A stretch of 63,612 nucleotides of DNA, filler included, from Licmophora abbreviata (lineage: Eukaryota): assembly GCA_900291995.1 (NCBI GenBank). It is 22 parts of 22 records of this genome, joined end to end, with 100 filler letters (N's around TTAATTAATTAA, not from the genome) between each part and the next. Parts side by side here need not be neighbours in the genome. Positions count along the whole stretch, not along the records: positions 1 to 6,350 come from OLMU01005038.1; positions 6,451 to 11,421 come from OLMU01005042.1; positions 11,522 to 15,523 come from OLMU01005043.1; positions 15,624 to 17,480 come from OLMU01005044.1; positions 17,581 to 20,073 come from OLMU01005045.1; positions 20,174 to 23,644 come from OLMU01005048.1; positions 23,745 to 26,483 come from OLMU01005049.1; positions 26,584 to 29,789 come from OLMU01005050.1; 14 more parts are not named here. One strand, written 5' to 3'. A model generated the notes under the pieces. It was not told where the DNA came from, did no database searches, and saw nothing but the letters and a program-made list of their open reading frames with translations. Below, one piece after another: positions 2,459-45,117 of the stretch. Both the position numbers and the translations under genes were made by a program. The stretch's first letter is position 1, and the number at the start of each line of letters is the position of its first letter.

Positions 2459-2575
2459 CCAAAGTGTTTCGCGAGAAACCCAGATCACGGATTTTCGCGA
2501 CATGCACTGCGTCGTTCAACCGTTGCATGCGGTCCGTCTTTGGCTGATGCTCAGGGTAAAGGCGGAACGCTTCAG
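2459..2575. repeat. ~118-bp MITE/RIME-like dispersed element, copy 1 (degenerate)
   Basis: Aligns by eye over its full length with the reverse complement of 23208-23325. Confidence 0.85.
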
Positions 2576-2608
2576 CTTTCGTCAAACCCCTTGCCGGAGG
2601 CTTGTCCC

Positions 2609-3601
2609 GTGTCACGTATCCTGTTCGCCCTGCTGCTGTTTCTGGCCCCTGTGAGTGCCGTGGCACAAGCCACGCAATGCGACGGCACCGATCTGATCGC
2701 CGCCCTGCCCCAAGAGGCGCAAGCCGATCTGCGCGCCGAAGCGGACGCGATGCCCTACCCGCAAGGGCTTCTCTGGCGGGCGACGCGGGGTGATACCGAG
2801 ATCACGCTGTTTGGCACCTATCATTTCCCGCATGAGGCGACGGAGGCCCATCTCGAGGCGCTGCGCCCGCTCATCGCGGAGGCCGAGGCGGTCTATCTGG
2901 AGATCTCGAACGCCGATCAGGACGCGATGCAGGAGGCGCTGGCGGAAGATCCGTCGCTCATGTTCATCACCGAAGGCCCCACCCTGCCCGATCTGCTGGG
3001 CGAAGACGACTGGGCGCTCTTCGCCGAAGAGATGCGCGCCCGCGCGATCCCGCCGTTCTTTGCCGCGAGGTTCAAGCCGGTCTGGGCGGCGATGATGATG
3101 GGGATCGGCCCCTGCGAGGCGCGCAATGGCGCCATGGACGGGGACGGCATCGACCATCTGATTGGGGTGTATGCCGGCGAGCTGGGCAATCCGTCGCGCT
3201 CGCTTGAAAATTTCCGGGTGCTGATGGGCATGCTGGACGAGTTCGAGATGGACGAGCAACTTGAAATGATCCGGCTGTTCTTTGCCTGGACGGGCAGCCC
3301 GGACGACATGGCCTATACGCTGCGCCAGAGATATCTGGCCGAGGAGATCGCGTTGATCTGGGCCTATTCCAAGAGGGTGTCTCTGGACTTCGGGGGCGAC
3401 AGCGCGGCACGGGATTTCGAGCAGTTCGAAGAGATGCTGCTGACCCGGCGCAACACCGACTGGATCGAGGTGCTGAGCGCCGCCCCGGAACGTCGGCTGT
3501 TCGTGGCGGCGGGTGCGGCGCATCTGCCGGGCGAGACAGGCGTTTTGCGCCTGCTGGAAAACGAGGGGTTCACGATCGAGCGTCTGCCGTTCGATCCGTG
3601 A
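2609..3601 (+). CDS. TraB/GumN family protein
   Basis: GTG start after GGAGG; signal peptide; LFGTYH, RRNxDW, FVAAGAAHLPGExGV motifs. Confidence 0.85.
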   Translation: MSRILFALLLFLAPVSAVAQATQCDGTDLIAALPQEAQADLRAEADAMPYPQGLLWRATRGDTEITLFGTYHFPHEATEAHLEALRPLIAEAEAVYLEISNADQDAMQEALAEDPSLMFITEGPTLPDLLGEDDWALFAEEMRARAIPPFFAARFKPVWAAMMMGIGPCEARNGAMDGDGIDHLIGVYAGELGNPSRSLENFRVLMGMLDEFEMDEQLEMIRLFFAWTGSPDDMAYTLRQRYLAEEIALIWAYSKRVSLDFGGDSAARDFEQFEEMLLTRRNTDWIEVLSAAPERRLFVAAGAAHLPGETGVLRLLENEGFTIERLPFDP

Positions 3602-4244
3602 TCTCGGCCCGGCCTGCATCGCTGAGCGCATAGACGCCGCGCGCGACACGCGCGAACCAGCCGTGGTGGTTGTCGGCCATGATCCGTGTCGCACGCCCCA
3701 CACCGGTCGCGCGGGCCACCGCAGCCCCCTGCAAGGGGCCATGCGCCGCCAGATGCGCCACACAGCGCAGCGCGTCCTGCCGGTAGGCGGTCATCACCTG
3801 CCCCCGCGTGCCCCCGGAATTGGGATCGCCCTCGCGCGCTGCGAACTCGCCCAGAAGGGCGGCGCGGCGGCGGGCCGACCGGCGCTGCACAAAGGGTGCT
3901 GGATCGCAATGCAGCTGCACGAAGCCGTCCTCGGTGCGCACGCTGAGCACGCCCAGCCCGAGACGGCGGCAGAGGCCCAGATTGCCCTTGAACGCCCGCC
4001 AGCCCGCCCGGCCCCGCCAGCGCGGCACCGCGACATAGACACAATCGGTGATCGCCTGACGGGCCACGGCCTGTTGCAGAAGGGTCAGCGAAAAGCCGGT
4101 TTTCAACTCGACCACCACAGGCTCGGCGCCGTCGCGAATGGCCAGCACGTCAGCCGCGCCCACCTCGGCCTTGACGGTATAGCCGAGCGTTTCAAGCCAT
4201 GTCTTGACGGGGGGATACAGCGCGGTTTCGGCGGGTTTGCTCAT
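3570..4244 (-). CDS. DUF2161-family putative PD-(D/E)XK nuclease-like protein
   Basis: ETALYPPVK..GYTVKAEV..DV..VVVELK..LLQQA; C-terminal MTAYRQDAL...NHHGWFARVARGVY. Confidence 0.8.
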   Translation of the reverse strand: MSKPAETALYPPVKTWLETLGYTVKAEVGAADVLAIRDGAEPVVVELKTGFSLTLLQQAVARQAITDCVYVAVPRWRGRAGWRAFKGNLGLCRRLGLGVLSVRTEDGFVQLHCDPAPFVQRRSARRRAALLGEFAAREGDPNSGGTRGQVMTAYRQDALRCVAHLAAHGPLQGAAVARATGVGRATRIMADNHHGWFARVARGVYALSDAGRAEITDRTADARS

Positions 4245-4339
4245 CCTCGCAAAATGGCCGCAACGCGCATGGGTGACAAGCCCGCCCTGCCCTCATATAA
4301 GGCGCGCAAATCCGATCCAAACCCGTAAGGACAGTGACA

Positions 4340-5260
4340 ATGACGACGCTTGTTTTCGGCCACAAATCCCCCGACACCGATTCCACCGGATCGCCGATCC
4401 TGTGGGCCTGGTATCTGAGCGAGGTGACAGGCACCGACGCCGAGCCGGTTCTTCTGGGCGAGCCCAACACCGAGGCCGCCTTCATGCTGGAGCGCTGGTC
4501 GCTGCCCAAGCCGCGCATCATCACCGATGTCGAGCCCGGCCAGCCTTGCGTGATCGTCGACACCAACAACCCCGCCGAACTGCCGGGTGCGATCAACGAG
4601 GCCGATATTCAAGGGATCATCGACCATCACAAGCTGGTGGGCGGGCTGGAGACCAAAGGCCCGATCGACATCACCGTGCGCCCGCTGGCCTGCACCGCGA
4701 CGATCATGGTCGATCTGATGGGCGAGCATGCCGCCCGGATGCCCGACGCCATGAAAGGCGCGGCGCTGACCTGCATCCTGTCGGACACGCTTGAGTTCCG
4801 CAGCCCCACCACCACCGCGCATGACCGCGCCGTGGCCGAGCGTCTGGCCGCCGATCTGGGGGTCGATATCGCCAGCTATGCCGCCGAGATGTTCGCCGCG
4901 AAATCCGATGTGTCGGCGTTTTCGGATGCCGAGCTGTTGCGCATGGACAGCAAGGAATACGCGGTTGCCGGCACGAAATTCCGCGTCTCGGTGCTGGAGA
5001 CGACGGCGCCTGTCACGGTGCTCGATCGCAAGGACAGCCTGATGCAGAGCATGCAGACCGTCGCCGCCGAAGATGGCGTGGATCAGGTTCTGCTGTTTGT
5101 GGTGGATATCCTGAACGAAGAGGCCACGCTGCTGGTGCCCAACGATCTGGTCAAGACGCTGGCCGAGAAGAGCTTTGGCGCAAGCGTCGCGGGCGACCAT
5201 GTGGTGCTTCCCGGCGTGATGAGCCGCAAGAAGCAAATCATCCCCAACCTCGCTCTCTGA
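4340..5260 (+). CDS. ppaC: Mn-dependent inorganic pyrophosphatase (DHH family II)
   Basis: GHKSPDTDS, DHH, SDTL, SRKKQ motifs. Confidence 0.95.
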   Translation: MTTLVFGHKSPDTDSTGSPILWAWYLSEVTGTDAEPVLLGEPNTEAAFMLERWSLPKPRIITDVEPGQPCVIVDTNNPAELPGAINEADIQGIIDHHKLVGGLETKGPIDITVRPLACTATIMVDLMGEHAARMPDAMKGAALTCILSDTLEFRSPTTTAHDRAVAERLAADLGVDIASYAAEMFAAKSDVSAFSDAELLRMDSKEYAVAGTKFRVSVLETTAPVTVLDRKDSLMQSMQTVAAEDGVDQVLLFVVDILNEEATLLVPNDLVKTLAEKSFGASVAGDHVVLPGVMSRKKQIIPNLAL

Positions 5261-5281
5261 GCAAGGCCGGGTTTTGGTTCG

Positions 5282-5309
5282 AGGGGCGTCCCGAGGGGCG
5301 CCCCTTTTT
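5282..5309 (+). terminator. Rho-independent terminator of ppaC
   Basis: AGGGGCGTCC-CGAG-GGGCGCCCCT followed by a T run. Confidence 0.75.
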
Positions 5310-5320
5310 CTGTGTCTGGA

Positions 5321-5812
5321 TCAGAGCGCCTGTTTGGGCCGCACCACGTGGAAGGCGCCGTGCATGTAGGTGAGCGGCCGTTCCCCGGCATTGGAAATCC
5401 CCGACACCGCCCCGATGCAGATCTGATGCGTGGCGTGGTTGTAGGTTTTCTGCAGCGTGCAGGTAAAGGCCGTGGCCCGTGGCAGGATCGGCCCGAATTC
5501 GTTGGGCGTGGCGATGACGCCATGAAAGCGATCGGGGTTTTCATGGTCGAACGCCCCCGCGAAGCGCTGCGCCACATCCACCGCATCCTCGGGCAGGACA
5601 TTGACGGTGAAGGTGCCGTTATCGGCCACCGCAAGCGCGATCCGGCTATCGGCCTTGAGGCACACGAGCACCGCCGGAGGATCGGCGGAAAGCGAGGTGA
5701 AGGCGCTGACCGTCGCCCCCATCAGCCCGCCCGGCCCATCGGTGGTGACAACGGTCACCGTCGTCGCCACCTGCCGCATCGCCGCGACAAACGCATCCCG
5801 CGCGGCGGTCAT
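5321..5812 (-). CDS. Flavin reductase-like domain protein
   Basis: FVAAMRQVATTVTVVTT...GATVSAFTSLSADPP...THQICIG...PLTY. Confidence 0.9.
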   Translation of the reverse strand: MTAARDAFVAAMRQVATTVTVVTTDGPGGLMGATVSAFTSLSADPPAVLVCLKADSRIALAVADNGTFTVNVLPEDAVDVAQRFAGAFDHENPDRFHGVIATPNEFGPILPRATAFTCTLQKTYNHATHQICIGAVSGISNAGERPLTYMHGAFHVVRPKQAL

Positions 5813-6091
5813 GCCTGCACCCCGGTTTCGAGTTCTGGCCGTGTCATTCAATTTCCATTCCCTTGGTTTTCGCCGCGCGGCCCGATACGCCGATATGTGC
5901 GCGGCCATGCCTTGTGCAACAGATAGAGAGTTTGCCGCCGATGCCCAAATCTTTCTTGGGAAAACATTGCGGCCCGGTGTGGTCCGGTGGGTTCTGCGCC
6001 CCGGACCGCGAGATTTTTCAAGGTGGCCATTGGCGCACGGGCCTGCCATAGCTGAGGCGTTTTTCGTCCCCAAGCTGCGCAGGCCCGTTCC

Positions 6092-6350
6092 ATGACCCAG
6101 ATCATCCAGTCGCTCTCCGAGATTTCCGACCGTTACGACGCGCTCTTCGTCGATCTGTGGGGGTGCCTGCATAATGGCGTGACCGCCTTTCCCGAGGCGG
6201 TCGCGGCCTTGCGGGCCTATCGCGAGGGCGGCGGGACGGTGGTGCTGGTGACCAATTCGCCGCGCCCCCGCGCCGGGGTTGAAAAGCAGCTTGTGAGCTT
6301 CGACGTGCCGACCGATTGCTGGGATGTCATCACCACATCAGGCGACAGCG
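6092..6350 (+). CDS. HAD-superfamily hydrolase (class IIA, TIGR01459-like), partial
   Basis: FVDLWGCLHNG, VTNSPR, TTSGD; truncated by linker. Confidence 0.85.
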
Positions 6351-6450
6351 NNNNNNNNNNNNNNNNNNNNNNNNNNNNNNNNNNNNNNNNNNNNTTAATT
6401 AATTAANNNNNNNNNNNNNNNNNNNNNNNNNNNNNNNNNNNNNNNNNNNN
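6351..6450. other. Artificial 100-nt contig linker (first of 21)
   Basis: N-run, TTAATTAATTAA, N-run. Others start at 11422, 15524, 17481, 20074, 23645, 26484, 29790, 37524, 38815, 41134, 43878, 45466, 46616, 48727, 50358, 52397, 55076, 56894, 59585, 62292. Confidence 0.99.
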
Positions 6451-6513
6451 GTCTGCGACTGGTCGGTCAGCGAGGCGGCGATCGACAGCTTCGTGGACGC
6501 CGCCCGCTTCTGA
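6451..6513 (+). CDS. C-terminal fragment, possibly threonine-aldolase/beta-eliminating lyase family
   Basis: [20 protein letters not shown]; only 20 aa visible. Confidence 0.35.
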
Positions 6514-6528
6514 GCGGCCAGCCCCGCG

Positions 6529-6601
6529 TTTCTTCTGGCCTGAAATATCCCGGGGGAGTCGTTGAAATCCCCCAAGGATTTCAACGGCGGGGGCTGGCCC
6601 C
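6529..6601. repeat. REP-like composite repeat (22-bp motif, GTTGAAATCC/GGATTTCAAC hairpin, GGGGGC-N-GCCCCC hairpin)
   Basis: Reverse complement matches 24272-24321 plus 24438-24459. Confidence 0.8.
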
Positions 6602-6614
6602 CAAAATGCCCCGC

Positions 6615-7460
6615 TCAGACCTCGTCGAAAAACCGCTGCAGTTCCGAGGCCACCTGGCGCGGATGGGTGATCGGCGCCATATGGCCCGCACCACCGATCA
6701 TCGCGCGCGCAGCATGCGGCAGGCGCGCGGCCAACCCTTCGGTGATCGCTTCGGTGATCGCGGGCGAGGCGCTGCCGCCCAGCAACAGCACCGGGCAAGC
6801 GATCCGCTCCAAGGCGCCGGGGGCCAGCACCCCCGCCACATCCTCCATCAAGGCGGGCGCCGCCGCGTCGATCATGGGAATGTCGCGGGCCAGTGCGGCG
6901 CGGGCGGCGGCCGGCAGGCTGTCCCAGTTGCGCCCGTCGCCCCAGATGGCGGTGAATTCCCGCGCCGCGGTCACGGTATCGCCAGCGGCCATGGCGCGCA
7001 CATAGCCAGACATATCCGCCTCGTAGCGGTCTCGAGCCGCGGGATCACCGGCAAAGGCCACGGCGAAGAGCACCGGCTCGATCAGCACCAGCGACCGCAC
7101 CAGATCCGGGCGTTCCACCGCCAGCCGCAGGGACACGGTGGCCCCGAAGGAATGGCCCAGAAGATCGACCGTCCCGGTGGCGATCTCCCCCTGTGCCTCG
7201 GCGGCAAGATCGGTCGCGAAATCAAGCGCCATGGCGGTGCTGAGGCCCTGCACCTCGCCCATGCCGGCTTCCCATGGCGCCGTTTGCCCGTGCCCCGGCA
7301 GATCGAAGGCAATGAGCGTCATCTGCTCGGCGAGCCGGGCACCAAGACCGGCCCAGCTTCCGGCATGGGCCAGCGTGCAATGGATCGCGAGCGCCCGGCG
7401 TGGGCCGTGACCGAATGTCGTCCAATGGGTCTCGACCCCCGCCCGCAGATCGCGCGGCAT
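6615..7460 (-). CDS. Alpha/beta hydrolase
   Basis: DLPGHG, GHSFG nucleophile elbow, GAGHM. Confidence 0.92.
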
Positions 7461-7463
7461 GGC

Positions 7464-8063
7464 TCAGAGCTTGCCCGCCAGATGCAGATCCAGATCCGCC
7501 AGCCTGTCCTGTCCCCAGAAGCTTTGGCCGGTATCGACGACATAGAACGGCGCTCCGAACACATTGTCCGCGACCGCCCGTTCCAGATTGGCGGCGTAGG
7601 TTTCAGCGCCGCTCAGAAGCCCACTATCGGCCAGCGCCGGATCGAACCCCGCCGCCTGCAGACAGTCGCGGATGACCGCATCTTCGGCGATGTCGCGCTC
7701 TTCCAGCCAGCAGGCGCGCAGGATGCTGTGCACCAGCTTGCCCATGTCGCCGCCGCCCGCCTCTTGGGCGGCGATGATCGCATAGGACGAGGGGGCGGCA
7801 TTGGTCGGCCAATGGGCGGGCTGGAGGTTCAGCGCCATCTCCAGCTTGCGGGCCTGACGCGGCAATTCCTGATCGCGATACGCCCGGCGCGAGGGGTGGC
7901 GATCCTTGGGCGCCTGCCCCCCGGTGCGCGGGAAAAGCTGCATGATGTCCAGCGGGCGATAGGTGATGTTGGCGCCATGCCGGTCCGCGATCTCTTCCAG
8001 CCGGTTCCCCGCCAGATAGGCATAGGGCGACAGTGTCGTGAAATAATAGTCGATATAGGCCAT
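7464..8063 (-). CDS. 2-hydroxychromene-2-carboxylate isomerase / GST-kappa-like (DsbA fold)
   Basis: [14 protein letters not shown]...VFGAPFYVV...FWGQDRL. Confidence 0.9.
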
Positions 8064-8171
8064 TTTTGCGGACTCCCCCGTTGGCACAGCTTTGCCCGAC
8101 GCTACGCCCATGCTAAGCGGAGTTCAACGTCACGAATCTGTCATCTGCAGCCACTCCGGGGACATTCCTTC

Positions 8172-9188
8172 ATGCCGACAACGCCCGAGCCGAAACTTAT
8201 CACCGGCAACGCCAACAAACAGCTTTCCACGGCGATCGCCCGCCGCATGTCCATGCATCGCGGCGTGAATGTCGGACTCGTCGATGCCCGGGTCGAGCGG
8301 TTCAACGATCAGGAAATCTTCGTCGAGGTCTACGAGAATGTCCGGGGCGAGGATATGTTCATCGTCCAGTCCACCTCGAACCCGGCGAATGACAACCTGA
8401 TGGAGTTGCTGATCATGTCCGACGCGCTGCGCCGGTCCTCGGCCAAGCGCATCACCGCCGTGATCCCCTATTTCGGCTATGCGCGGCAGGATCGCCGCTC
8501 CAAGGCGCGGACGCCGATCTCGGCCAAGCTGGTGGCGAATATGCTGGTCGGTGCAGGGATCGAACGCATTCTGACGATGGACCTGCACGCCACCCAGATT
8601 CAGGGGTTCTTCGACATCCCCGTGGACAACCTTTATGCGGCACCGGTCTTTGCGCTGGATATCAAGCAGCAATTCAGCAGCGCGATGGATGACGTGATGG
8701 TCGTGTCACCCGATGTGGGCGGTGTGTCGCGGGCGCGCGAGCTGGCCAAGCGGATTCAGGCGCCACTCTCGATCGTGGACAAGCGCCGCGAAAAAGCGGG
8801 CGAGATCGCCGAGATGACCATCATCGGCGAGGTGGCCGGCAAGAAATGCATCATCGTCGATGATATCTGCGATACCGCCGGAACATTGTGCAAGGCGGCG
8901 CAGGTGCTGATGGATAACGGCGCCTCGGAAGTTCACGCCTATATCACGCACGGGGTTCTGTCCGGCCCCGCCGTGGAGCGGATCACCAAATCGGTCATGA
9001 AATCGCTGGTCATCACCGATACGATCCAGCCGACCGAGGCGGTCAAGGGCGCCGCGAACATCCGGATCATCCCCACCGCGCCGATCTTCGCGCAGGCGAT
9101 CCTGAACATCTGGAACGGCACATCGGTGTCGTCGCTCTTCGAAACCGAGACGCTGGAGCCGATCTACGAGGGTCAGTTCGGCGGCTGA
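8172..9188 (+). CDS. prs: Ribose-phosphate pyrophosphokinase
   Basis: [31 protein letters not shown]. Confidence 0.98.
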
Positions 9189-9257
9189 CGCCCCCACCGC
9201 GAAGCACGCCGGCCCCGCACGGGCCGGCAACGACCTTCCCAGCGGGCAGAGCGGGTG

Positions 9258-9608
9258 TCAGTAAAGCTGCCAGTCGTCCTCGTGCCGCACTTCGCCAATG
9301 GCCATCCAGCGGATACGCGAGCGCGCCACGCGGGTATCGCCCCATGTGCGGAACACGATGTCGAACCCGATTTCGGTGATCTTCTCGGCTGCCACATCGG
9401 CGCGCGCATTCGTGGCGCTGTCCATATCCCACATCGACAACGAGACATGCACCACGGGCGGGGTCTTGAACGGTTCGGAAAACAGCAGGCTCTTGCGGCG
9501 TGCACGGGGGCCATCGCCGGTCCACATGACGCCACCATCCTCGTAATCCGAGAACAGCACGTCTTCGCCTTGATCTATCCCGATGGTGCGGCTCGTAAGA
9601 TGCTTCAT
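9258..9608 (-). CDS. H-type lectin domain protein
   Basis: FSEPFKTPPVVHVSLSMWD...NARAD...ITEIGF...TWGDT...WMAIG pattern. Confidence 0.75.
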   Translation of the reverse strand: MKHLTSRTIGIDQGEDVLFSDYEDGGVMWTGDGPRARRKSLLFSEPFKTPPVVHVSLSMWDMDSATNARADVAAEKITEIGFDIVFRTWGDTRVARSRIRWMAIGEVRHEDDWQLY

Positions 9609-9664
9609 GTTCTCAACCTGTCATCGAAGCGAGACTAGTATCGGTTTGGGGCGAAATTTGGAAC

Positions 9665-9700
9665 CAAAAAAGGAAAAGGGCCCACAATGGAGCCCTTTTC
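9665..9700 (-). terminator. Terminator of the atp operon
   Basis: GAAAAGGGC...GCCCTTTTC stem with a U-rich tail on minus. Confidence 0.75.
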
Positions 9701-9722
9701 GACATCCGGAACCGGGCTGCGC

Positions 9723-10148
9723 TCAGTTGGGCGACAGGCCGATGTGATCGCCCATGGCAACCATGTCGGCCAAAAGCTTGGCCGCGTCGTCCACCGGGCC
9801 GGGCTCGTTGACGAAGGTTTCCTGCGCCTTGGCCAGCTTGTCGGTCGCTTCGTCCACCAGCGCCTTGTACTGCGCCTGCGTGATCTCGTCGCGCGGGATC
9901 GCACGCTCGGCAAGCACCGAGACGCTGCCGCCGTCGATCTCGGCGAAGCCGCCTGTCACGACGTAATCAGCGGTCCCGTTCGGACCGGTCACCGTCACGA
10001 TGCCGGGGCGCAGGGTCGTGATGAGCGGGCTGTGCTGGGCCATGGCCGTCAGGTCGCCTTCCGCGCCGGGAATGCGAACTTCGGTCGCGTCCACCGACAC
10101 CAGACGCCGCTCGGGCGACACCAGATCGAAATGCACTGTATCAGCCAT
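9723..10148 (-). CDS. atpC: ATP synthase epsilon subunit
   Basis: [27 protein letters not shown]. Confidence 0.97.
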
Positions 10149-10218
10149 TCATGGGCCTCCTTGTGAGGCCCCCGCAAGCGCCGGACGGTTGGTCCGGCAC
10201 GCACGGGGGCAGCAGTCA

Positions 10219-11765
<1,547 letters not shown>

Positions 11766-11785
11766 ATCTCGTCTCTCCGGTTTCG

Positions 11786-12670: not shown

Positions 12671-12685
12671 TGCCTTATCTCCCCC

Positions 12686-14224
<1,539 letters not shown>

Positions 14225-23207: not shown

Positions 23208-23325
23208 TTAAAGCGTTCCGCCTTTGACCTGAGGCATCAGCTAAAGGCGGAACGCGTGCACCGATTTAACGGAACACTGCATTTCGCGAAAATCTGTGAT
23301 TCAGGTTTCCCGCGAAACGCTTTAA
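23208..23325. repeat. ~118-bp MITE/RIME-like element, copy 2
   Basis: TIR TTAAAGCGTT...AACGCTTTAA; internal hairpins GCGTTCCGCCTTT/AAAGGCGGAACGC and TTTCGCG/CGCGAAA. Confidence 0.9.
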
Positions 23326-23358: not shown

Positions 23359-24254
23359 ATGCTCAGAGGTCTTATCGGTCTGATGATGGTCGCGGCACTG
23401 GCGTGGTCAGGTTATTGGTTCTTCATATCCTCCAGTCTTCAGCAGGGCTTCGAGGACTGGTTCGACGCGCGCCGCGCCGAGGGCTGGATGGCCGATTACG
23501 GCGCGCTCGGCGTTCAGGGCTTTCCGAACCGGATCGACACGGTGATCGACGATCTTGACCTCGCCGATCCCGACACCGGCCTCGCCTGGAGCGCGCCGCG
23601 CTTCCAGATCAACGCCCTCAGCTACCGGCCCAATCACGTCATTGNNNNNNNNNNNNNNNNNNNNNNNNNNNNNNNNNNNNNNNNNNNNTTAATTAATTAA
23701 NNNNNNNNNNNNNNNNNNNNNNNNNNNNNNNNNNNNNNNNNNNNCAGAACGCCGCCACCTACCGCCTTGGTCTGGCCGCCGAGGGGCTGACGCCGTCGCT
23801 GCCATGGCGCAAAACGGTCGATCCCGACGGCTCACTGCCCGAAAGTTTCGATGCGGTCAGCGCCGACATGACGGTCGAGTTCGACAAGCCATGGGATCGC
23901 AGCGCCATCGAGGTCGCCCGCCCGCAACCCCTGCAAATCACCCTGAAACTGGCCGAGGCCCGTTGGGGCCGATTGGAGCTTCAGGCCGCGGGCGCGGTCA
24001 GCGTCGATGCGCAAGGCCTGCCCACCGGCGAGATCACCATCAAGGCCCGCAACTGGCGTGAGATTCTTCAGATTTCGGTGGCCGCCGGGGCGATCTCACC
24101 GGGCCTGGCCGGGGCGCTCGAGGATGGTCTGTCGCTCTTGTCGCAACTGTCGGGCAATCCCAACACGCTGGATATCCCACTGGGCTTTCGCAACGGGCGC
24201 ATGCTGCTTGGCCCCGTGCCGATCGGCCCTGCCGCGGTGTTGCGCCTGCGGTAA
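23359..24254 (+). CDS. DUF2125-family protein (split by linker 23645-23744)
   Basis: WSGYWF...GFPNRIDT...ADP; C-terminal LLGPVPIGPAA. Confidence 0.75.
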
Positions 24255-24271: not shown

Positions 24272-24515
24272 GGGGGCCCTGCCCCCGACGTTGAAATCCT
24301 TGGGGATTTCAACGTGCCCCCTAAAGCGTTCCAACGTTCACCTGGGACATCAGCGAAAGGTGGAACGCGTGCAACGATTGGATGCAGCACAGCGTTTCGC
24401 GAAAGGATGCAAGGCAAGTCTTTCGCGAAACGCTTTAGGATATTTGCGGCCAGAAGAAACGCAGGCTGCGCCTGAGTTCCGCACCGGGCGCGGTTTCTTC
24501 TGGCCATAAATATCC
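24272..24515. repeat. REP-like composite repeat interrupted by the 118-bp element, plus an inverted 22-bp copy
   Basis: GGGGGCCCTGCCCCC, GTTGAAATCC..GGATTTCAAC, [insert], GGATATTTGCGGCCAGAAGAAA (24438-24459), TTTCTTCTGGCCATAAATATCC (24494-24515). Confidence 0.8.
24321..24438. mobile_element. ~118-bp MITE/RIME-like element, copy 3, with apparent TA duplication
   Basis: CTAAAGCGTT...AACGCTTTAG ends; nested in another repeat. Confidence 0.85.
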
Positions 24516-32571: not shown

Positions 32572-32575
32572 GGTC

Positions 32576-34463: not shown

Positions 34464-34468
34464 CGCCG

Positions 34469-34939
34469 TCAGGGATCGTGGCGCGGCACCTTGCGCGACG
34501 GCGCGCGATAGGGCCGCGTCACGTCTTTCAACGTGACCTCGAGCGCCTCGATCTCAAGCCGGATCGCGCCATCCCCCGCCAGCGTCAGCAGCACATGCCC
34601 CGCGCCTTCCTCGCCCGGCTCGAAGGTGACCGACAGCAGGGACAGGATGGTGTCACTGTCGCTCCGGTCGATACCCTGGCTCGCCACCTTCAGAACATTG
34701 TCGATCACCAGAACCGACTGCACCCGTTCGGGATCGTGCCGCCGGCGCCCCTCGTCTTCCCAGCGAAACCGGTTAAGTAGCAGCGCAAAGCGCCGCTCGG
34801 CCGGGCGCCACGTGATCTCGGTGATCGGAAAGATCGCATCCTGCGCAAGCGACGACATCACCTGCAGATCGTCCGGATCGAGCGCGCCAAGGTTCAGCGG
34901 CGCCTCGCGGCCCTCTTCGAATGTGGCGTCTTGTGTCAT
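34469..34939 (-). CDS. DUF2948 family protein
   Basis: [37 protein letters not shown]; follows murA. Confidence 0.85.
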
Positions 34940-36204: not shown

Positions 36205-36209
36205 CTGCT

Positions 36210-36377
36210 CTAGTCCTTGTCCTCGGGGGCCTCTGGCCTGTCCGCCGCCTCGTCGCCGGATCGGGCGCGTGCCTGCGCCTTACGTCGAGCAAGATTGGCC
36301 TTCAAGGCCGATTTCAAACGGTCTTCCCGGCTTTGCGCCACGGTTGCGGCCTTTTTTATGGGGTCTTTTGGGTTCAT
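36210..36377 (-). CDS. Small basic hypothetical protein (55 aa)
   Basis: [55 protein letters not shown]; purine-rich RBS; stop 5 nt before the murA ATG. Confidence 0.65.
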
Positions 36378-36463
36378 TCTCCCTCTCTACAGCAGGGCTC
36401 AAAAAGCGTCCAGATTGGGCTTGCACCATTTGGAATTAGGGTCTAAGCACCGCGCCACACGTT

Positions 36464-36538
36464 GCTGCTGTAGCTCAGTGGTAGAGCGCACCCTTGGTAA
36501 GGGTGAGGTCGGGAGTTCAATCCTCCCCAGCAGCACCA
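36464..36538 (+). tRNA. tRNA-Thr(GGT)
   Basis: GCTGCTG acceptor stem, TAGCTCAGTGG D arm, CACCC-TTGGTAA-GGGTG anticodon arm, GTTCAA T loop, CCA end. Confidence 0.97.
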
Positions 36539-36564
36539 CCTCCCCTACGGCAGTTTGGCGCTGA

Positions 36565-37655
<1,091 letters not shown>

Positions 37656-37687
37656 AGCACCCAACCTTTGCATGGAAGGGGGCACTG

Positions 37688-38629
37688 TTGGCAAGGGACC
37701 GCGCAAAGGCTGACGACTACACCGGACCGCTCAAGCGTTTGCTGATCGGCGTCCTTTTGTTGTGCCTTGTCGCCCTGTTCCTTTTGTGGCGCATCGACAG
37801 CCCCCGGGTCGAACGGTTCCGCGCTCAGGTGATCGACACGGTCGTGCCCAGCTTCGACTGGGCCATGGCCCCGGTGACCGCGACGGTCAACATCCTCCGC
37901 GACTTCCAGAGTTATCAGCGCATCTATCGCCAGAACCAGGAATTGCGCCGCGAATTGCAGCAGATGAAAGCCTGGAGAGAGGCCGCTTTGCAGCTCGAAC
38001 AGGAAAACGCCCGCCTTCTGGACCTCAACAACGTGCAGCTCGATCCGCGCCTGACCTATGTCACCGGCGTCGTGATGGCCGATAGTGGCTCGCCCTTCCG
38101 GCAATCGGTGTTGCTGAATGTCGGCGGGCGCGATGGCATCGTCGATGGCTGGGCCGCGATGGACGGGCTGGGCCTCGTGGGGCGCATCTCGGGCGTGGGC
38201 GACAGGACCGCCCGGGTGGTGTTGCTGACCGACACCTCCAGCCGCATCCCCGTGACGGTGCAGCCCTCGGGCCAACGCGCCCTGCTGATCGGCGACAACA
38301 GTGCGGCGCCCTATGTGGATTTCATCGAAACCCCCGATCAGGTGCGCCCCGGCGACCGCATCCTCACCTCGGGCGATGGCGGGGTGTTCCCCGCCGGTCT
38401 GCTGGTCGGGCAGCTGACGCAGGATCCCGGTGGCCGGATGCGCGCCCGACTTGCCGCCGATTACGAACGGCTCGAATTTCTGCGCGTGCTGCGCAGCTAC
38501 GGCACCGAAACCATCGGCGATCCGGGCCGCCTGATCGCGCCGGCAAGCCTGCCCGAAAGCTCAGGCGGCCCCGATCCCGAAGCCGCGCCCGACACCGCCC
38601 CGACGCCTGCGGAGGCCGGCAATGGCTGA
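37688..38629 (+). CDS. mreC: Rod shape-determining protein MreC
   Basis: TM plus coiled coil; GLVGRI, TSGDGGVFPAGL. Confidence 0.95.
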   Translation: MARDRAKADDYTGPLKRLLIGVLLLCLVALFLLWRIDSPRVERFRAQVIDTVVPSFDWAMAPVTATVNILRDFQSYQRIYRQNQELRRELQQMKAWREAALQLEQENARLLDLNNVQLDPRLTYVTGVVMADSGSPFRQSVLLNVGGRDGIVDGWAAMDGLGLVGRISGVGDRTARVVLLTDTSSRIPVTVQPSGQRALLIGDNSAAPYVDFIETPDQVRPGDRILTSGDGGVFPAGLLVGQLTQDPGGRMRARLAADYERLEFLRVLRSYGTETIGDPGRLIAPASLPESSGGPDPEAAPDTAPTPAEAGNG

Positions 38630-39295
38630 GCGCAGACACCAAAGCCGCTGGGCCATGCGCATGCTCTTCGGGGTGCTCTGCCTCCTGCTGATCTTCCTGC
38701 ACCTCTTGCCGCTGCAACTCCTGCCGCGAGGCTGGGCCGGGCCAGATGTCATGCTCGCCCTGACCTTCGCATGGGTGCTCAGGCGCCCCGATTTCGTGCC
38801 GCCCCTGCTGATCGNNNNNNNNNNNNNNNNNNNNNNNNNNNNNNNNNNNNNNNNNNNNTTAATTAATTAANNNNNNNNNNNNNNNNNNNNNNNNNNNNNN
38901 NNNNNNNNNNNNNNAGGCGCCCCGTATTTCGTGCGCCCCTGCTGATCGCCGGGCTGTTTTTGCTGACCGATCTGCTGTTTCAGCGCCCGCCGGGCCTCTG
39001 GGCGGCGCTGGTCCTGCTCGGCAGTCAGACCCTGCGCGCCCGTGAACCGGGCCTGCGCGATCTGACCTTCGCGGTGGAATGGGTCAGCGTCGCCACGACG
39101 CTGGTCGCCATGACGCTTGGCTACCGCATCATCCTTGCGATCCTGATGGTGGATCAGGCCCCGCTCGGCCTCAGCCTGATGCAGCTGGTCCTGACGCTCA
39201 TGGTCTATCCCTTGGTCGCACTGATCTCTCACACCGCCTTCGGGGTCCGCAAGATCGCCCCCGGCGATATCGACGCATTCGAGAGCCGCGCATGA
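38622..39295 (+). CDS. mreD: Rod shape-determining protein MreD (split by linker; ends overlap)
   Basis: Hydrophobic; PDVMLAL..W..RRPD; lies between mreC and mrdA. Confidence 0.88.
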
Positions 39296-41133
39296 GACGC
39301 CCTCCCAAGGATAACGCCGAAAGCCAGCGCCGGATCACCCGGCGCGGCCTGATCGTGGGCGGCGCGATGGCCGGATTCGTCGGCCTGCTGGCGCTTCGGA
39401 TGCGCTTCATGCAGGTCGAGCAGGCCGATCAATTTCGCCTTCTGGCCGATGAAAACCGCATCAATATCCGCCTCATCCCCCCGGCGCGGGGCCGGATCTT
39501 CGATCGCGACGGCGCTGTCGTGGCGGAAAACGTGCCCAGCTACCGCATCACAATGGTCCGCGAAGAGGCCGGCGATGTCGACGAGGTGATTTCCCGGCTG
39601 GCCAGACTGGTCGAACTGGACCCCGCCGAACTCGAACGCGCCCGCCGCGCCCTGAACGAGCTGCGCGGCGACACGCCCGTCACCATCGCCGACCGCGTGA
39701 CATGGGAAGACATCAGCCGCGTCGCCGTCAACACCCCCGCCCTGCCGGGTGTGACCCCCGAAGTGGGCCTCTCGCGGCGCTATCCCCAAGGGCCCGATTA
39801 CGCCCATGTCGTGGGCTATGTCGGGCCGGTCAGCGAACGCGATCTGGAACGGATCGACGCGCCCGATCAGCTGCTGCTGATCCCGCGCTTCCAGATCGGC
39901 AAGATCGGCCTCGAAGCCCGGCAAGAGGACCTTCTGCGTGGCAAGGCCGGCACCAAGCGCGTCGAGGTGAACGCCTCGGGCCGTGTCATGCGCGAACTGG
40001 ACCGGGTCGAAGGCGAAGCCGGCGCCGATGTCCAGATCACCATCGACAACGACCTGCAATCGTACGTCCATGCCCGCCTCTATGGCGAAAGTGCCGCCGC
40101 CGTGGTGATGGATTGCGAAACCGGCGATCTGCTGGCCTGCGCCTCGGCGCCCAGCTTCGATCCCAACCTCTTCGTGCGCGGCATCTCGGTCGCCGATTAT
40201 AAGGCGCTTCTGGACAACAAGTATCGCCCCCTGCCCAACAAGGCGGTGCAGGGGATGTATCCGCCCGGTTCGACCTTCAAGATGGTCACCGCGCTCGCCG
40301 CCCTCGAGGACGGACAGGTCGATCTCAACGAAACCGTCTACTGCCCCGGCCATCTCGAGGTCAGTGGCCGCCGCTTTCACTGCTGGAAGCGCTCGGGCCA
40401 TGGCAACATGGACATGCACGGATCACTGGTCGAAAGCTGCGATGTCTACTACTACGATGTCGCCCTGCGCACCGGGATCGAAAAGATCAGCGCCATGGCC
40501 CGCCGCCTTGGCCTCGGCGAGCAGTTCGACCTGCCACTCACCTCGGTCGCCGCCGGCCTCATGCCCGACCGCGACTGGAAGCGCGCCAACCGCGGCGAGG
40601 AATGGGTGATCGGCGACAGCGCAAACGCCGCGATCGGTCAGGGCTTCGTTCTGTCCACCCCGCTGCAACTGGCGGTGATGACGGCCCGGCTCGCCACCAA
40701 CCGCGCCATCATGCCCCGGCTCGTCAAATCCATCGACGGGGTCGAACAACCGATCCGCCCGCCCGAAGATCTGGGCCTGAACGAAAACATCCTGCGCGAG
40801 GTGCGCAAGGCGATGTTCGACGTGTCCAACCATCGTCGCGGCACCGCCTATTCCAGCCGCATCATCGAAGACGCCTTCCGCATGGCCGGCAAGACCGGCA
40901 CCAGCCAGGTGCGCAACATCACCGCCGCCGAACGCGCGCGCGGCGTGACCCGCAATGCCGACCTGCCCTGGGAACGCCGCGACCACGCGCTTTACGTGAA
41001 CTACGCGCCCTATGACGCGCCCCGGATCGCCGTGGCGGTGGTGGTCGAACATGGCGGCGGCGGCTCGACCGCGGCCGCGCCCATTGCGCGCGACATCACC
41101 TTGCAGGCGCTTTACGGCGAAGACCCGCCGCTG
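39292..41133 (+). CDS. mrdA: Penicillin-binding protein 2, 3' truncated
   Basis: PARGRIFDR, YPPGSTFK, SCD, KTGT. Confidence 0.96.
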
Positions 41134-41233
41134 NNNNNNNNNNNNNNNNNNNNNNNNNNNNNNNNNNNNNNNNNNNNTTAATTAATTAANNNNNNNNNNN
41201 NNNNNNNNNNNNNNNNNNNNNNNNNNNNNNNNN

Positions 41234-41459
41234 GTGGGCCATACGGCATCTCGGCCATCTCCAGCGGCGCGCGCCCCGGATGGGACGACGCGAACGAGGA
41301 ATGCCCCGCCGGGTGCCAATCCTGCGTCAGGATCACGGCGCCGAACGCCTCCATCAGCGCATTGATCCCCGCCACGATATCGTCCCCTCCGGGCACCGCC
41401 AGCGCGCCGCCGGGACAGAAATCGTTCTGCATATCGATCACGATCAGGGCTTGGGTCAT
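41234..41459 (-). CDS. pncA: Nicotinamidase/pyrazinamidase, partial
   Basis: IDMQNDFCPGGAL, TQDWHPAGHSSF. Confidence 0.92.
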
Positions 41460-41564
41460 GCGGGTGGTCCTCCTTCAGCCGACAGGTGGTCAGATGCGCA
41501 GCCTGCGTCAATGGCGCCGGTTTGTCCACTTGCCGAAATCCGTGGCACTTAGTACATCGCGGCC

Positions 41565-42479
41565 ATGTACACGATCGCCGCCCTCTATCATTTCACACGG
41601 TTTGCCGACCCGGCCGGCCTTCAAGCCCCGCTCCTTCAGCTGTGCGAGGCCGAAGGGATCTCCGGCTCGCTCCTGCTGGCGCACGAAGGCATCAACGGCA
41701 CCATCGCCGGGCCGCGCCCAGGGATCGACGCGGTGCTCGCGCATATCCGAGCCCTGCCCGGTTGCTCGGATCTGGAGTGGAAGGAAAGCAGCAGCGCGTA
41801 TCAGCCCTTCCGCCGGCTCAAGGTCCGCCTGAAGAAAGAGATCGTGACCATGGGACAGCCCGACGTGGACCCGCGCGCCCGCGTCGGCCATTATGTCGAT
41901 CCCGTCGACTGGAACGACCTGATCCGCGCCCCCGATGTGGCGGTGATCGACACGCGCAACGATTACGAGGTGGCGATCGGCACGTTCGACGGCGCGATCG
42001 ACCCCGAAACCGCCAGCTTCCGCGATTTCCCAGCTTGGTGGGAGGCGAACAAGCACCGCTTTCACAACAAGCGCATCGCGATGTTCTGCACCGGTGGTAT
42101 CCGTTGCGAGAAATCCACCAATTACCTGCTCGGTCAGGGCGTCGAGGAGGTGTATCACCTCAAGGGCGGCATCCTGAAATATCTCGAAGAGATGCCCGAA
42201 GCCGACAGCACATGGAACGGCGACTGTTTCGTGTTCGACGCGCGTGTCTCGGTGGGGCATGGGCTGCGCGAAGGGCCGCATGTGCTGTGCTATGCCTGCC
42301 GCCGCCCGATCCTGCCCGAAGACAGGTCACGCTCCGAATATGAACACGGTGTCTCGTGCCATCACTGCGCCCATGAAACCAGCGCCGATGACAAGGCCCG
42401 TTTCCGGGAACGCCAGAAACAGATCGCCCTCGCCGAGGCGCGCGGCGCGCGCCACATCAAGATCGTTCACGAAGGCTGA
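41565..42479 (+). CDS. trhO: Rhodanese-related tRNA U34 hydroxylase (UPF0176)
   Basis: EGINGT, DTRNDYE, CTGGIRCEK, LKGGILKY, FVFDAR. Confidence 0.9.
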   Translation: MYTIAALYHFTRFADPAGLQAPLLQLCEAEGISGSLLLAHEGINGTIAGPRPGIDAVLAHIRALPGCSDLEWKESSSAYQPFRRLKVRLKKEIVTMGQPDVDPRARVGHYVDPVDWNDLIRAPDVAVIDTRNDYEVAIGTFDGAIDPETASFRDFPAWWEANKHRFHNKRIAMFCTGGIRCEKSTNYLLGQGVEEVYHLKGGILKYLEEMPEADSTWNGDCFVFDARVSVGHGLREGPHVLCYACRRPILPEDRSRSEYEHGVSCHHCAHETSADDKARFRERQKQIALAEARGARHIKIVHEG

Positions 42480-42544
42480 AAAATTTTTCGCAGAAAAATC
42501 ACAAACCCGAAAATTCGCAGAATTTTCTAGCGCGCACCGCCGTT

Positions 42545-43765
42545 TCAGGCCGCCACAGCCACCGGCTTGCGCGGCCGCGTGCGCATCAGGATCAGCACCA
42601 TGATCGCGATATTGAGCACGTTCCACACGATCCCGTTGATGAAGGCCATGTGATAGCTCCCCGTCACATCATAGATCCAGCCCGACATCCAGCCGCCGAG
42701 CGCCATGCCGAGGATCGTTGCCATGATGACGAATCCCACGCGCCGCCCGGCCTCCTGACTGGGCATGTATTCACGCACCACGAGCGCATAGCTGGGCACG
42801 ATCCCGCCCTGCGCCAGACCGAAGATCAGGCTGACCATGTAAAGCGACACAAGCCCCCCCGACGGCAGGTACAAAAACAGCGCCAGGCATTGCAGCGCCG
42901 ACCCGATCAGCAGCGTCACCACACCGCCCAGCCGATCCGCCAGCAGCCCCGACACCAGCCGCGAGGCCACGCCCCCCAGCAGCATCAGCGACAGCATCTG
43001 CCCGCCCACCGCCGGGCCATAGCCCAGATCGACGCACAGGCTCACGATATGGACCTGCGGCATCGACATCGCCACGCAGCATCCCACACCCGCGAGCCCC
43101 AGCATCAGCATCAGCGTGCGCGGCGGAAACCCCGCCGCCTTGGCGCGCAGGCTGGATGCGGCATCGGCCCGCTCGGTGGCGGACATCGGCACCCGGCGGC
43201 GCAGGAACATCGCAAGCGGCAGAACGGTTGCGACAGTCACCACCGCCAGCACCATATAGACCGCGCGCCAGCCCTGCTCGGCCAGCACCCCCGACAGGAT
43301 CACCGGCCAGAAGGCCCCCGACAGGTAATTGCCGCTGGCGGTGATCGCCACCGCGATCCCCCGCCGCTTGAGAAACCACAGCGACACATCCGCGATAAGC
43401 GGCCCGAAACTCGCCGCCGTGCCGAAGCCGATCACGAATTGCAGCGCCGACAGGATCAGCACCGACGGAGCAAGGGCCGCCAGCGCCGTCGACCCCGCGA
43501 TCAGCACCGCCGCCGCACTCAGCGCCAGCGTGATCCCGAACCGGTCCACGATTCGCCCGATCACCAGATTGCCCAGCGCGAAACCCACCATGGTCAGCGT
43601 ATAGGGCAAGGAGGCATCCGCCCTGTCGATCGCGAACTCGGCCTGCACCGCTGGCATGATGACGATGATCGCCCACATGCCCACATTGCCGATCGTCGCG
43701 ATCGCCAATGAGATGGCCAGCCTGGTCCAGGCATAGCGGCTGTCAAGAATATCCGCATCCGTCAT
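42545..43765 (-). CDS. MFS transporter
   Basis: ~12 TM; GRIVDRFG and GLLADRLG motif A. Confidence 0.92.
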   Translation of the reverse strand: MTDADILDSRYAWTRLAISLAIATIGNVGMWAIIVIMPAVQAEFAIDRADASLPYTLTMVGFALGNLVIGRIVDRFGITLALSAAAVLIAGSTALAALAPSVLILSALQFVIGFGTAASFGPLIADVSLWFLKRRGIAVAITASGNYLSGAFWPVILSGVLAEQGWRAVYMVLAVVTVATVLPLAMFLRRRVPMSATERADAASSLRAKAAGFPPRTLMLMLGLAGVGCCVAMSMPQVHIVSLCVDLGYGPAVGGQMLSLMLLGGVASRLVSGLLADRLGGVVTLLIGSALQCLALFLYLPSGGLVSLYMVSLIFGLAQGGIVPSYALVVREYMPSQEAGRRVGFVIMATILGMALGGWMSGWIYDVTGSYHMAFINGIVWNVLNIAIMVLILMRTRPRKPVAVAA

Positions 43766-43977
43766 GGCGTGACGTTAGTGCGGCGCGCAGGCGCGCACCA
43801 GTCCGATTTGCGCCCCCGGCCACATGTCGGTCGCGCCCTCGTTTCGCGGCCCTCTTTGCGGCAGGGCTTGGCCTCGANNNNNNNNNNNNNNNNNNNNNNN
43901 NNNNNNNNNNNNNNNNNNNNNTTAATTAATTAANNNNNNNNNNNNNNNNNNNNNNNNNNNNNNNNNNNNNNNNNNNN

Positions 43978-44936
43978 TGACATCCACGCCCCGCCCTGCC
44001 GATATCGCCCGCGATGTGCTCACCATCGAGCGCGACGCCTTGGGCACCTTGCTGGAGGCCCTGCCGCATGATTTCGACGCGGTGGTCGAGCTGCTGCTGA
44101 CGGTTCCGGGCCGGGTGATCGTGTCCGGCATGGGCAAATCGGGGCATGTGGCCGCCAAGATCGCCGCCACCATGGCCAGCACCGGATCGCCCGCGCAATA
44201 TGTCCATCCCGGCGAGGCCAGCCATGGCGATCTGGGCATGATCACCGCTCAGGACGCGGTGATCCTGATCTCCAATTCCGGCGAAACCCGGGAACTGGCC
44301 GACATCATCGCCCATACAAGGCGCTTTTCGATCCCGCTGATCGGCATCACCAAACGCGCCGACAGCACGCTCGGCACCCAGTCCGATCATCTTCTCGCCC
44401 TGCCCGACGCGCCCGAAGCCTGCGCCATCGGCATGGCCCCCACCACCTCGACCACGCTGACCATGGCGCTTGGCGATGCGCTGGCCGTGGCGCTGATGCA
44501 TCTGCGTGGCTTCGAACGTGAGAATTTCCTGGCCTTCCATCCCGGCGGCACGCTCGGGGCGCAATTGCTCAAGGTCTCCTCGGTGATGCATAGCGGCGCG
44601 GACCTGCCCGTGGTCCATGCCGACACGCCGATGGGCGACACGCTGCTGGAAATGACCGCCAAGGGCTTCGGCGTGGCCGCCCTGGTCGAAGAGGGTCGCC
44701 TGATCGGCGTCATCACCGATGGCGACCTGCGCCGCAATCTGACCAATCTGATGGAGCGCACCGCCGGCGAGGTGGCCACCCGCGGCCCGCGCACCATCTC
44801 GCCGGACGCGCTCCTGTCCGAAGCCCTCGGCGTGATGAATGCCAACAAGATCAGCGCGCTCTTCGCCGTGGATGACGCAGGCACCCTGCGCGGCCTCGTC
44901 CATATTCACGACGCCCTGCGCGCCGGCGTCGCCTGA
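43978..44936 (+). CDS. kdsD: KpsF/GutQ arabinose-5-phosphate isomerase (start at linker edge)
   Basis: GMGKSG, EASHGDLG, SNSGET, PTTST, HPGG, CBS pair. Confidence 0.9.
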
Positions 44937-44999
44937 AAGCGGCCCTTCGTGATCGCCCCCCGCAATGATCAAGGCAGTGGCGTTCCCGCGCCCGACTTG

Positions 45000-45117
45000 C
45001 TAAAGCGTTGCGCGAAAACCCTCAATAGCAGCCTTTCGCGAACCGCCGTGCTGCCTGCAATCGTTGCACGCGTTCCACCTGTCGCTGATCTCTCAGGTCA
45101 AAGGCGGAACGCTCCAA
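45000..45117. repeat. ~118-bp MITE/RIME-like element, copy 4
   Basis: CTAAAGCGTT start; GCGTTCCACCT...AAAGGCGGAACGC hairpin; same orientation as copy 1. Confidence 0.87.

What the first reader, a model, noticed from the sequence alone, without database searches (positions are those of the whole stretch)
2459..45117. Dispersed 118-bp two-hairpin MITE/RIME-like element, four copies in ~62 kb
Seen: four intergenic copies (2459-2575, 23208-23325, 24321-24438, 45000-45117) of 117-118 bp, in both orientations. Ends are inverted (TAAAGCGTT...AACGCTTTA), with two internal palindromes (GCGTTCC.CCT..AGG.GGAACGC and TTTCGCGA..TCGCGAAA). Stems are conserved while loops diverge, which suggests selection on structure. 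Known: rhizobial RIMEs and Brucella Bru-RS repeats have a similar two-palindrome layout, and IS630/Tc1-type MITEs duplicate TA. Inference: a high-copy non-autonomous element, possibly uncharacterised in roseobacters. Three copies lie within ~40 bp of start codons (TraB/GumN, chaC/DUF2125, panB), so it may also act as a 5'UTR or promoter module.
Basis: partly seen in the sequence, partly recalled or inferred. Interest (0 to 1): 0.75.

Follow-up and report, generated by a model that had tools for sequence, protein, structure and literature searches.

The report
Roseovarius hitch-hiker transposon with IS630 partner
The four repeats are copies of a 112-base non-coding jumping element of marine Roseovarius bacteria whose two ends match the two ends of a specific insertion sequence, which points to the enzyme that moves it and may explain how a long-known class of two-hairpin repeats in related bacteria spreads.

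Summary
Real. The four copies (68-81% alike) belong to a 112-bp two-hairpin element of a Roseovarius: at least 40 places in this assembly, present in 67 of 147 Roseovarius genomes, no Rfam match. It is mobile: orthologous sites in relatives are empty, the net gain is 114 bp (112 + a duplicated 2-bp target), and the target is YTAR. A partner was found: a ~1,056-bp IS630-family insertion sequence of roseobacters whose 3' end matches element end A (26-27 of 30 nt) and whose 5' end matches end B (24-25 of 30), including the single GANTC site. The layout is that of the alphaproteobacterial CIR/RIME/Bru-RS repeats, whose mobility mechanism a 2008 review leaves open; 12 of 22 ends of other such repeats also match this IS630 clade. 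Against: no intact partner in this assembly, none found in 12 of 18 high-copy genomes, GANTC decays in copies, no transposition assay. A promoter/5'UTR role is not supported. The scan noted the same reading before on another genome (e1-1256648). Verdict: new member of a known kind, with a testable partner enzyme.

The parts
2459..2575 (-). Copy c1: 111-bp core 2462-2572 flanked by CA/CA on the + strand (duplicated non-TA target); upstream of a TraB/GumN-family gene
   Evidence: site empty (CTAG) in G025, G077, G081, filled with CA/CA in G063
23208..23325 (+). Copy c2: TA 23209-23210, 112-bp core 23211-23322, TA 23323-23324; between divergent chaC and DUF2125 genes
   Evidence: intergenic 178 bp vs 61-69 bp in 63 of 78 relatives; 114-nt skip in one contig; filled in G025
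23209..23238 (+). End A (c2): matches the 3' end of the IS630 partner, including the stretch that carries the transposase stop codon; 5' arm and loop of the left hairpin
   Evidence: consensus end A vs IS 3' end 26/30, 27/30
23295..23324 (-). End B (c2): matches the 5' end of the IS630 partner; loop and outer arm of the right hairpin
   Evidence: consensus end B vs IS 5' end 25/30, 24/30
23298..23302 (.). GANTC (CcrM-type) site in the loop of the right hairpin; the only GANTC of the consensus, intact only in c2 among the four window copies
   Evidence: 12 of 30 own copies intact; 66 of 108
24321..24438 (+). Copy c3: TA 24322-24323, core 24324-24435, TA 24436-24437; inserted inside a different, REP-like repeat between convergent DUF2125 and extensin-like genes
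   Evidence: site empty in G025, G077, G081
24272..24460 (+). Second repeat family interrupted by c3 (host of the insertion; not part of the element)
45000..45117 (-). Copy c4: core 45003-45114, end A decayed; between a SIS/CBS gene and panB
   Evidence: filled at the same site in G025 and G063, absent in G077, G081, G067

Best explanation
A non-autonomous miniature transposon (MITE) of 112 bp moved in trans by the DDE transposase of one clade of ~1,056-bp IS630-family insertion sequences. Shown: sharp symmetric ends, YTAR target, 2-bp target duplication, empty orthologous sites, end-specific sequence match to the IS. Inferred: the transposase dimer binds the outer ~30 bp at each end, cuts the element out and inserts it at the TA of YTAR; the two hairpins arise because each half is an IS end followed by an inverted, partly decayed copy of an end (either two ~52-bp mini-elements joined head to tail, or inner duplication); the GANTC in the right loop is inherited from the IS 5' end, which carries 2-4 such sites, and is not selected in resting copies. 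Copies sit near start codons because YTAR is rare in 64% GC coding DNA.
For: Ends conserved and flanks random in 30 own copies. 127 distinct sites: 97 TA/TA, Y before in 120, R after in 111; identical non-TA dinucleotide on both sides at 3 sites vs 0.71 expected, p 0.026; one copy lies inside an IS630 gene in G088 with TC on both sides where six homologues read through without TA. Empty sites. IS630 in G040: end A 26/30 to its 3' end, end B 25/30 to its 5' end; 29 of 30 IS5-family control loci reach 14-19/30, the 30th (25) holds a mini-element in its flank. Over positions 7-28 against 52 IS ends: 19/22 and 17/22, shuffled best about 9, p 0.0005. A blind DNA search of 301 family genomes with the element retrieved an IS630 by its end alone (G510; 27/30 and 24/30). 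Family call NF033545; named copy annotated IS630 family transposase on Pseudosulfitobacter plasmid NZ_CP022416. Six full-length IS copies in G203 lie in different flanks, each with Y-TA at both ends. Forms of 92, 62, 52-53 and 26 nt keep both outer ends. Unrelated interiors between the same ends in other roseobacters.
Against: No intact partner in the own assembly: one fragment at a contig end, 70% DNA identity, 3' end only 18/30. The transposase query found no match in 12 of 18 Roseovarius genomes rich in the element, and the best-matching IS lies in G040, which holds only 2 end motifs: no co-occurrence. The copy in the closest relative G025 looks degenerate. 4 of 7 sites with non-TA on both sides have different dinucleotides, and 23 sites have TA on one side only. 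No transposition assay.
Confidence: 0.85

Rival explanations
1. A domesticated cis-regulatory or small-RNA module (promoter, 5'UTR hairpins, CcrM-controlled switch) kept for function, as speculated for CIR.
For: Stable hairpins; 12 of 38 pairs show two-sided change, 0 of 500 shuffles reach it; copies near start codons; CcrM homologue in the assembly and GANTC at 0.53 of expectation in the window; rhizobial RIMEs are reported to be transcribed (PMC3738161, passages).
Against: Presence/absence differs between 96-98% identical relatives; 63 of 78 relatives keep a 61-69 bp chaC/DUF2125 spacer without it; copy number runs from 0 to 131 end motifs within the genus; GANTC decays faster than the median position (G 0.14, A 0.14, T 0.19 vs 0.046); covariation is dominated by one subfamily change (pair 11-43, 15 of 32 rows); forms lacking either hairpin exist.
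Confidence: 0.07
2. A MITE moved by an IS5-family (IS427/IS711-type) transposase, which also duplicates TA in YTAR.
For: IS711 duplicates TA in YTAR and is associated with Bru-RS repeats (PMC2266754, passages); IS5-type genes occur in 76 of 147 Roseovarius genomes.
Against: None of 30 fetched IS5-type loci has an IS end resembling the element (14-19/30, one explained exception), whereas IS630 ends match end for end. Only 30 loci of more than 200 matches were examined.
Confidence: 0.04
3. A REPIN/PATE-like element moved as single-stranded DNA by an HUH enzyme that recognises the two hairpins.
For: Two subterminal hairpins is the layout such enzymes use (recalled knowledge).
Against: Symmetric inverted ends and a 2-bp target duplication are not HUH features (recalled); the ends derive from an IS630. 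HUH genes were not searched.
Confidence: 0.04

Closest known systems
CIR1-CIR4 (Caulobacter CcrM-associated intergenic repeats; Chen and Shapiro 2003, seen only as summarised in PMC2229807)
   Same: About 110 bp, intergenic, TA at the termini, two long inverted repeats joined by a linker, GANTC in a terminal loop of one hairpin.
   Different: The review lists CIR as having no TIR, TSD unknown and mobility mechanism unknown; here TIRs, the 2-bp duplication and a partner IS are found. GANTC is not well conserved here (12 of 30; 66 of 108). Sequence identity to Caulobacter CIRs could not be tested.
RIME (rhizobia) and Bru-RS1/2 (Brucella)
   Same: Size and two-palindrome layout (Bru-RS 103-105 bp, PMC2267715 table; RIME layout recalled). 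104-108 bp two-hairpin elements with YTAGAGC ends were found on S. meliloti pSymB and an S. mexicanum replicon; calling these RIME is my inference.
   Different: Ends read TAAAGCG, not TAGAGC; inner end copies are more decayed; interior sequence is not alignable. No Brucella sequence was examined.
RUP of Streptococcus pneumoniae with IS630-Spn1
   Same: 107-bp TA-targeting MITE assigned to an IS630 by end similarity (PMC2229807): the same kind of evidence and proposed mechanism.
   Different: RUP folds by pairing its two ends; this element has two internal hairpins and a GANTC site; different phylum.
IS630-family insertion sequences (NF033545, PF13358)
   Same: Partner: ~1,056 bp, two ORFs joined at an A7 slippery site, DDE motif, YTAR target, transposase stop within the 3' end.
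   Different: The element encodes nothing; it keeps about 30 bp of each IS end. I could not check ISfinder for a name of this IS.

Membership tests
MITE (IS630-mobilised) | Terminal inverted repeats | tested here: met
   AAGCGTT at both ends, about 10 of 11 matching
MITE (IS630-mobilised) | Target-site duplication, TA | tested here: met
   114-bp net gain at empty sites; 97 of 127 TA/TA; TC/TC inside a gene
MITE (IS630-mobilised) | Dispersed, multi-copy, polymorphic insertion | tested here: met
MITE (IS630-mobilised) | Ends shared with an autonomous IS630 | tested here: met
MITE (IS630-mobilised) | Partner present in the same genome | tested here: inconclusive
   fragment only in G000; 6 of 18 high-copy genomes have a clade member; drafts lose IS copies
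MITE (IS630-mobilised) | Transposition by that enzyme | not testable with these tools
   needs an assay
CIR | About 110 bp, two hairpin arms with linker, TA termini, intergenic | tested here: met
   all four window copies intergenic; one intragenic copy in G088
CIR | GANTC in a terminal loop | tested here: met
   sole GANTC of the consensus, in the right loop
CIR | GANTC highly conserved among copies | tested here: not met
   12 of 30 and 66 of 108 intact; above-median divergence
CIR | Sequence similarity to Caulobacter CIR1-4 | not testable with these tools
   original paper not held; no labelled CIR sequence obtained
RIME / Bru-RS | Sequence similarity to the described consensus | tested here: inconclusive
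   no match outside Roseovarius among 72,556 plasmids incl. rhizobial replicons; only layout and first 6-7 nt shared with pSymB elements; labelled consensus not available
Rfam RNA family | Covariance-model match | tested here: not met
   none at gathering threshold nor over the element at E up to 5

The most novel reading that the evidence does not exclude
The whole class of alphaproteobacterial two-hairpin repeats (CIR, RIME, Bru-RS and this family) are MITEs of a single IS630 clade with TARAGC ends; their CcrM site is a relic of the IS 5' end, whose 2-4 conserved GANTC sites lie over the transposase promoter and binding region, so that CcrM hemimethylation gates transposition of the IS and its MITEs to the replication window of the cell cycle, as Dam does for IS10/IS50 (recalled analogy).
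Probability: 0.35. Interest if true: 0.7.

Novelty: new member of a known kind. Interest (0 to 1): 0.45.

Why it matters
The element itself is one more bacterial MITE. What adds value is the partner: reviews from 2008 to 2024 that I could read list CIR-type repeats without a transposase and suggest regulatory or gene-conversion roles for their CcrM site. Here an IS630 clade matches both ends with the right polarity and supplies the GANTC, which turns a 20-year-old open point into a direct assay, and suggests methylation control of an alphaproteobacterial IS family. Practically, insertions fall into promoter regions of housekeeping genes and differ between close strains, so they are strain markers and a source of expression variation in roseobacters.

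Tried and rejected
Rfam: no match. Orphan end motifs in the own assembly (17 stretches) were decayed or short copies or chance matches, not long elements. IS630 hits in the own assembly: three lie on contigs of 26-52% GC, probably other organisms. IS5/IS427 partner: no matching ends in 30 loci. Class-wide loose pattern: 170 of 301 genomes match but most listed matches in AT-rich genomes are chance, and the reversed control is a commoner word in GC-rich DNA, so counts are unusable; only hand-picked multi-copy families were used. Gene-context heuristic is crude, miscalls some starts and counts c4 twice; used only to say that no fixed end or distance appears. Sequencing runs: only contigs, so no statement on expression; the 114-nt skip rests on one contig with 25 letters on its short side at 85% likeness. 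Sequence look-up in earlier findings: nothing. Chen and Shapiro 2003 not held; Halling and Bricker 1994 and the RIME papers were not looked up by id. Literature searches for a prior IS630-CIR/RIME link or a Roseovarius element found none in this library, which lacks most subscription papers and ISfinder; supplements were not read.
Full report
OBSERVATION. c2 and c3 face one way, c1 and c4 the other. Each folds into two long hairpins on both strands (z -1.6 to -8.0). No Rfam family covers them. The window is a gapped scaffold of a Roseovarius: ChaC is 85% identical to R. halotolerans and the seven best of 80 kept relatives but one are labelled Roseovarius. It lies in a 29-Mb mixed assembly of 7,734 contigs, so I cannot show that every copy there is from one organism.

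COPY NUMBER AND RANGE. c2 as query gave 46 matches in the assembly (40 of 41 candidates scored); 6 are self-palindrome hits, leaving 40 places, a lower bound. Thirty distinct full-length copies, the four window copies included, are 81-97% identical to their consensus, with sharp ends and random flanks. 67 of 147 genomes of the genus match; an end motif occurs 0 to 131 times per genome against 0 to 14 for the reversed control. In 301 genomes drawn from the family 12 match, mostly weakly and with only 2 candidates scored per genome. Among 72,556 plasmids 2 match, both Roseovarius; 107 metagenome stretches hold a 30-nt end pattern.

IT MOVES AND DUPLICATES TWO BASES. None of 80 orthologous chaC loci holds the element. 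The chaC-DUF2125 spacer is 178 bp here, 61-69 bp in 63 of 78 measurable relatives and 74-150 bp in the other 15; the window minus the element with one TA kept matches the relatives' spacer. One contig of another run skips the same 114 nt (weak). G025, 96-98% identical at three loci, shares c2 and c4 but has empty sites at c1 and c3. At 127 distinct sites not chosen for their flanks, 97 are TA/TA, 120 have Y before and 111 R after; 3 carry the same non-TA pair on both sides (0.71 expected, p 0.026), 4 carry different non-TA pairs, 23 have TA on one side only. In G088 a 112-bp copy interrupts an IS630 gene with TC on both sides where six homologues read through without TA. So the element proper is 112 bp and the dinucleotide comes from the target.

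THE PARTNER. Of 30 IS630-type loci fetched from the genus (best per genome out of 244 matches) most belong to one clade of 1,052-1,061 bp with TARAGC ends. The member in G040 matches element end A over 26 of 30 nt at its 3' end and end B over 25 of 30 at its 5' end; it has two ORFs joined at an A7 slippery site and a DDE motif and scores as NF033545. End A includes the bases that carry the transposase stop; end B includes the first GANTC of the IS, whose 5' 70 nt hold 2-4 GANTC sites in every clade member whose 5' end could be placed (one further locus, L330, gave no such end) and. Scored on positions 7-28 only against 52 distinct IS ends, the best matches are 19/22 (3' ends) and 17/22 (5' ends), shuffled best about 9, p 0.0005. 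Independently, the element as a blind query over 301 family genomes pulled out an IS630 in G510 by its end (27/30 and 24/30; transposase 88% identical). A named copy is on Pseudosulfitobacter plasmid NZ_CP022416. Six full-length copies in G203 show Y-TA at both ends in different flanks, the same target as the element. Thirty IS5-type control loci reach 14-19/30, except one whose flank holds a mini-element. Against: the own assembly holds only a distant fragment (70%, 18/30); the transposase query found nothing in 12 of 18 element-rich Roseovarius genomes; G040 itself has almost no element. MITEs that outlast their partner and draft assemblies that drop IS copies can explain this (established knowledge), but co-occurrence is not shown.

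ANATOMY. Each half is an outer IS-like end of about 30 bp followed by an inverted, partly decayed copy of an end, which makes the two hairpins; a 20-bp linker joins them. Stand-alone forms of 92, 62, 52-53 (either hairpin) and 26 nt keep both outer ends. They may be building blocks or deletion products between the inner and outer repeats; I cannot order them. Other roseobacters carry 106-nt elements with the same ends and unrelated interiors, so the ends, not the hairpins, are the common need. Pairing is kept (92.5% of cells; 12 of 38 pairs with two-sided change; 0 of 500 shuffles), but one inherited change supplies 15 of 34 such cells and DNA-level symmetry predicts the same pattern. The left loop is better conserved than its arms, as expected if it is IS-end sequence.

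REGULATORY IDEA. The host assembly has a CcrM homologue (partial, E 2e-132 to NF050803, below the whole-protein cut-off; E 2e-112 to PDB 6PBD) and GANTC is at 0.53 of expectation in the window, the lowest of nine pentamers. But the element's GANTC is intact in 12 of 30 and 66 of 108 copies and three of its four fixed bases vary more than the median. With a crude gene set covering 84% of the window, 27 of 42 YTAR sites lie outside genes or at stop codons, which explains the nearness to start codons without a function. Expression could not be tested.

COMPARISON WITH KNOWN ELEMENTS. Delihas 2008 (PMC2229807, passages) describes CIR as about 110 bp, two arms and a linker, TA termini, GANTC in a terminal loop, TSD unknown, mobility mechanism still to be ascertained, and RUP as assigned to IS630-Spn1 by end similarity. 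Passages of PMC10969869, PMC3184786 and PMC3372372 mention CIR without a transposase; PMC2267715 tabulates Bru-RS; PMC2266754 gives the IS711 YTAR target; PMC3738161 reports RIMEs as transcribed. The original CIR, RIME and Bru-RS papers I did not see. The element works like RUP and is built like CIR; it meets the CIR layout, fails the conserved-GANTC criterion, and sequence membership is untested, so I file it as a CIR-type IS630 MITE, not as a CIR. For the wider claim I took 11 two-hairpin elements from S. meliloti pSymB, S. mexicanum and five unnamed alphaproteobacteria: 12 of 22 ends match the IS630 clade at p up to 0.005, 3 at 0.01-0.03, 7 not. These rows are not independent, the polarity is clean only in part, and G203, which holds both, has its GANTC end matching its own IS 5' end at 16/22. 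Seven literature searches found no description of this family or of the IS630 link in the held library.

VERDICT. A real, recently mobile MITE, new member of a known kind (confidence 0.85 for IS630 mobilisation). Interest 0.45: ordinary as an element, useful because it names a testable enzyme and an origin for the CcrM site of CIR-type repeats.

Noticed in passing
window 24272-24460 (+), 6550-6602 (-), partial near 24495-24515 (-): A second, REP-like repeat family (GC-rich palindrome, then a GGATATT...AGAAGAA tail). c3 is inserted into it; a 92-nt copy in G025 (L439) sits at the same position of another copy, and a related MITE in G472 (L547) is also flanked by it: a possible insertion hot spot.
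   Followed up: partly
L364 601-652 and L365 605-656 (NZ_CP022416, NZ_CP022417): Two copies of the IS630 in one strain are 100% identical over 1,005 bp but differ in the first ~52 bp of the 5' end, as if 5' ends are exchangeable modules.
   Followed up: no
5' ends of IS630 clade, e.g. L320 210-280: 2-4 GANTC sites in the first 70 nt across members of 45-100% transposase identity, in genomes where GANTC is depleted.
   Followed up: partly
L543, L544, L546, L547: Further ~106-nt MITE families with the same IS630-type ends but unrelated interiors in other Rhodobacteraceae.
   Followed up: no
G288 (L448 3443-3549): An unnamed alphaproteobacterial genome with 142 matches to the loose two-end pattern against 10 for the control; one fetched copy is a 107-nt two-hairpin element.
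   Followed up: partly
window 2341-2367: CIRCE-type inverted repeat upstream of groES-groEL (name recalled), about 90 bp from c1; conserved in relatives.
   Followed up: no
window 58620-58720 (-) and 36464-36535 (+): TPP riboswitch (RF00059) and a tRNA gene.
   Followed up: no
whole window; 21 gaps such as 23645-23744: The window is a scaffold of short contigs joined by 100-nt N linkers with a TTAATTAATTAA core, from a bacterium inside a 29-Mb mixed assembly with contigs of 26-67% GC.
   Followed up: no
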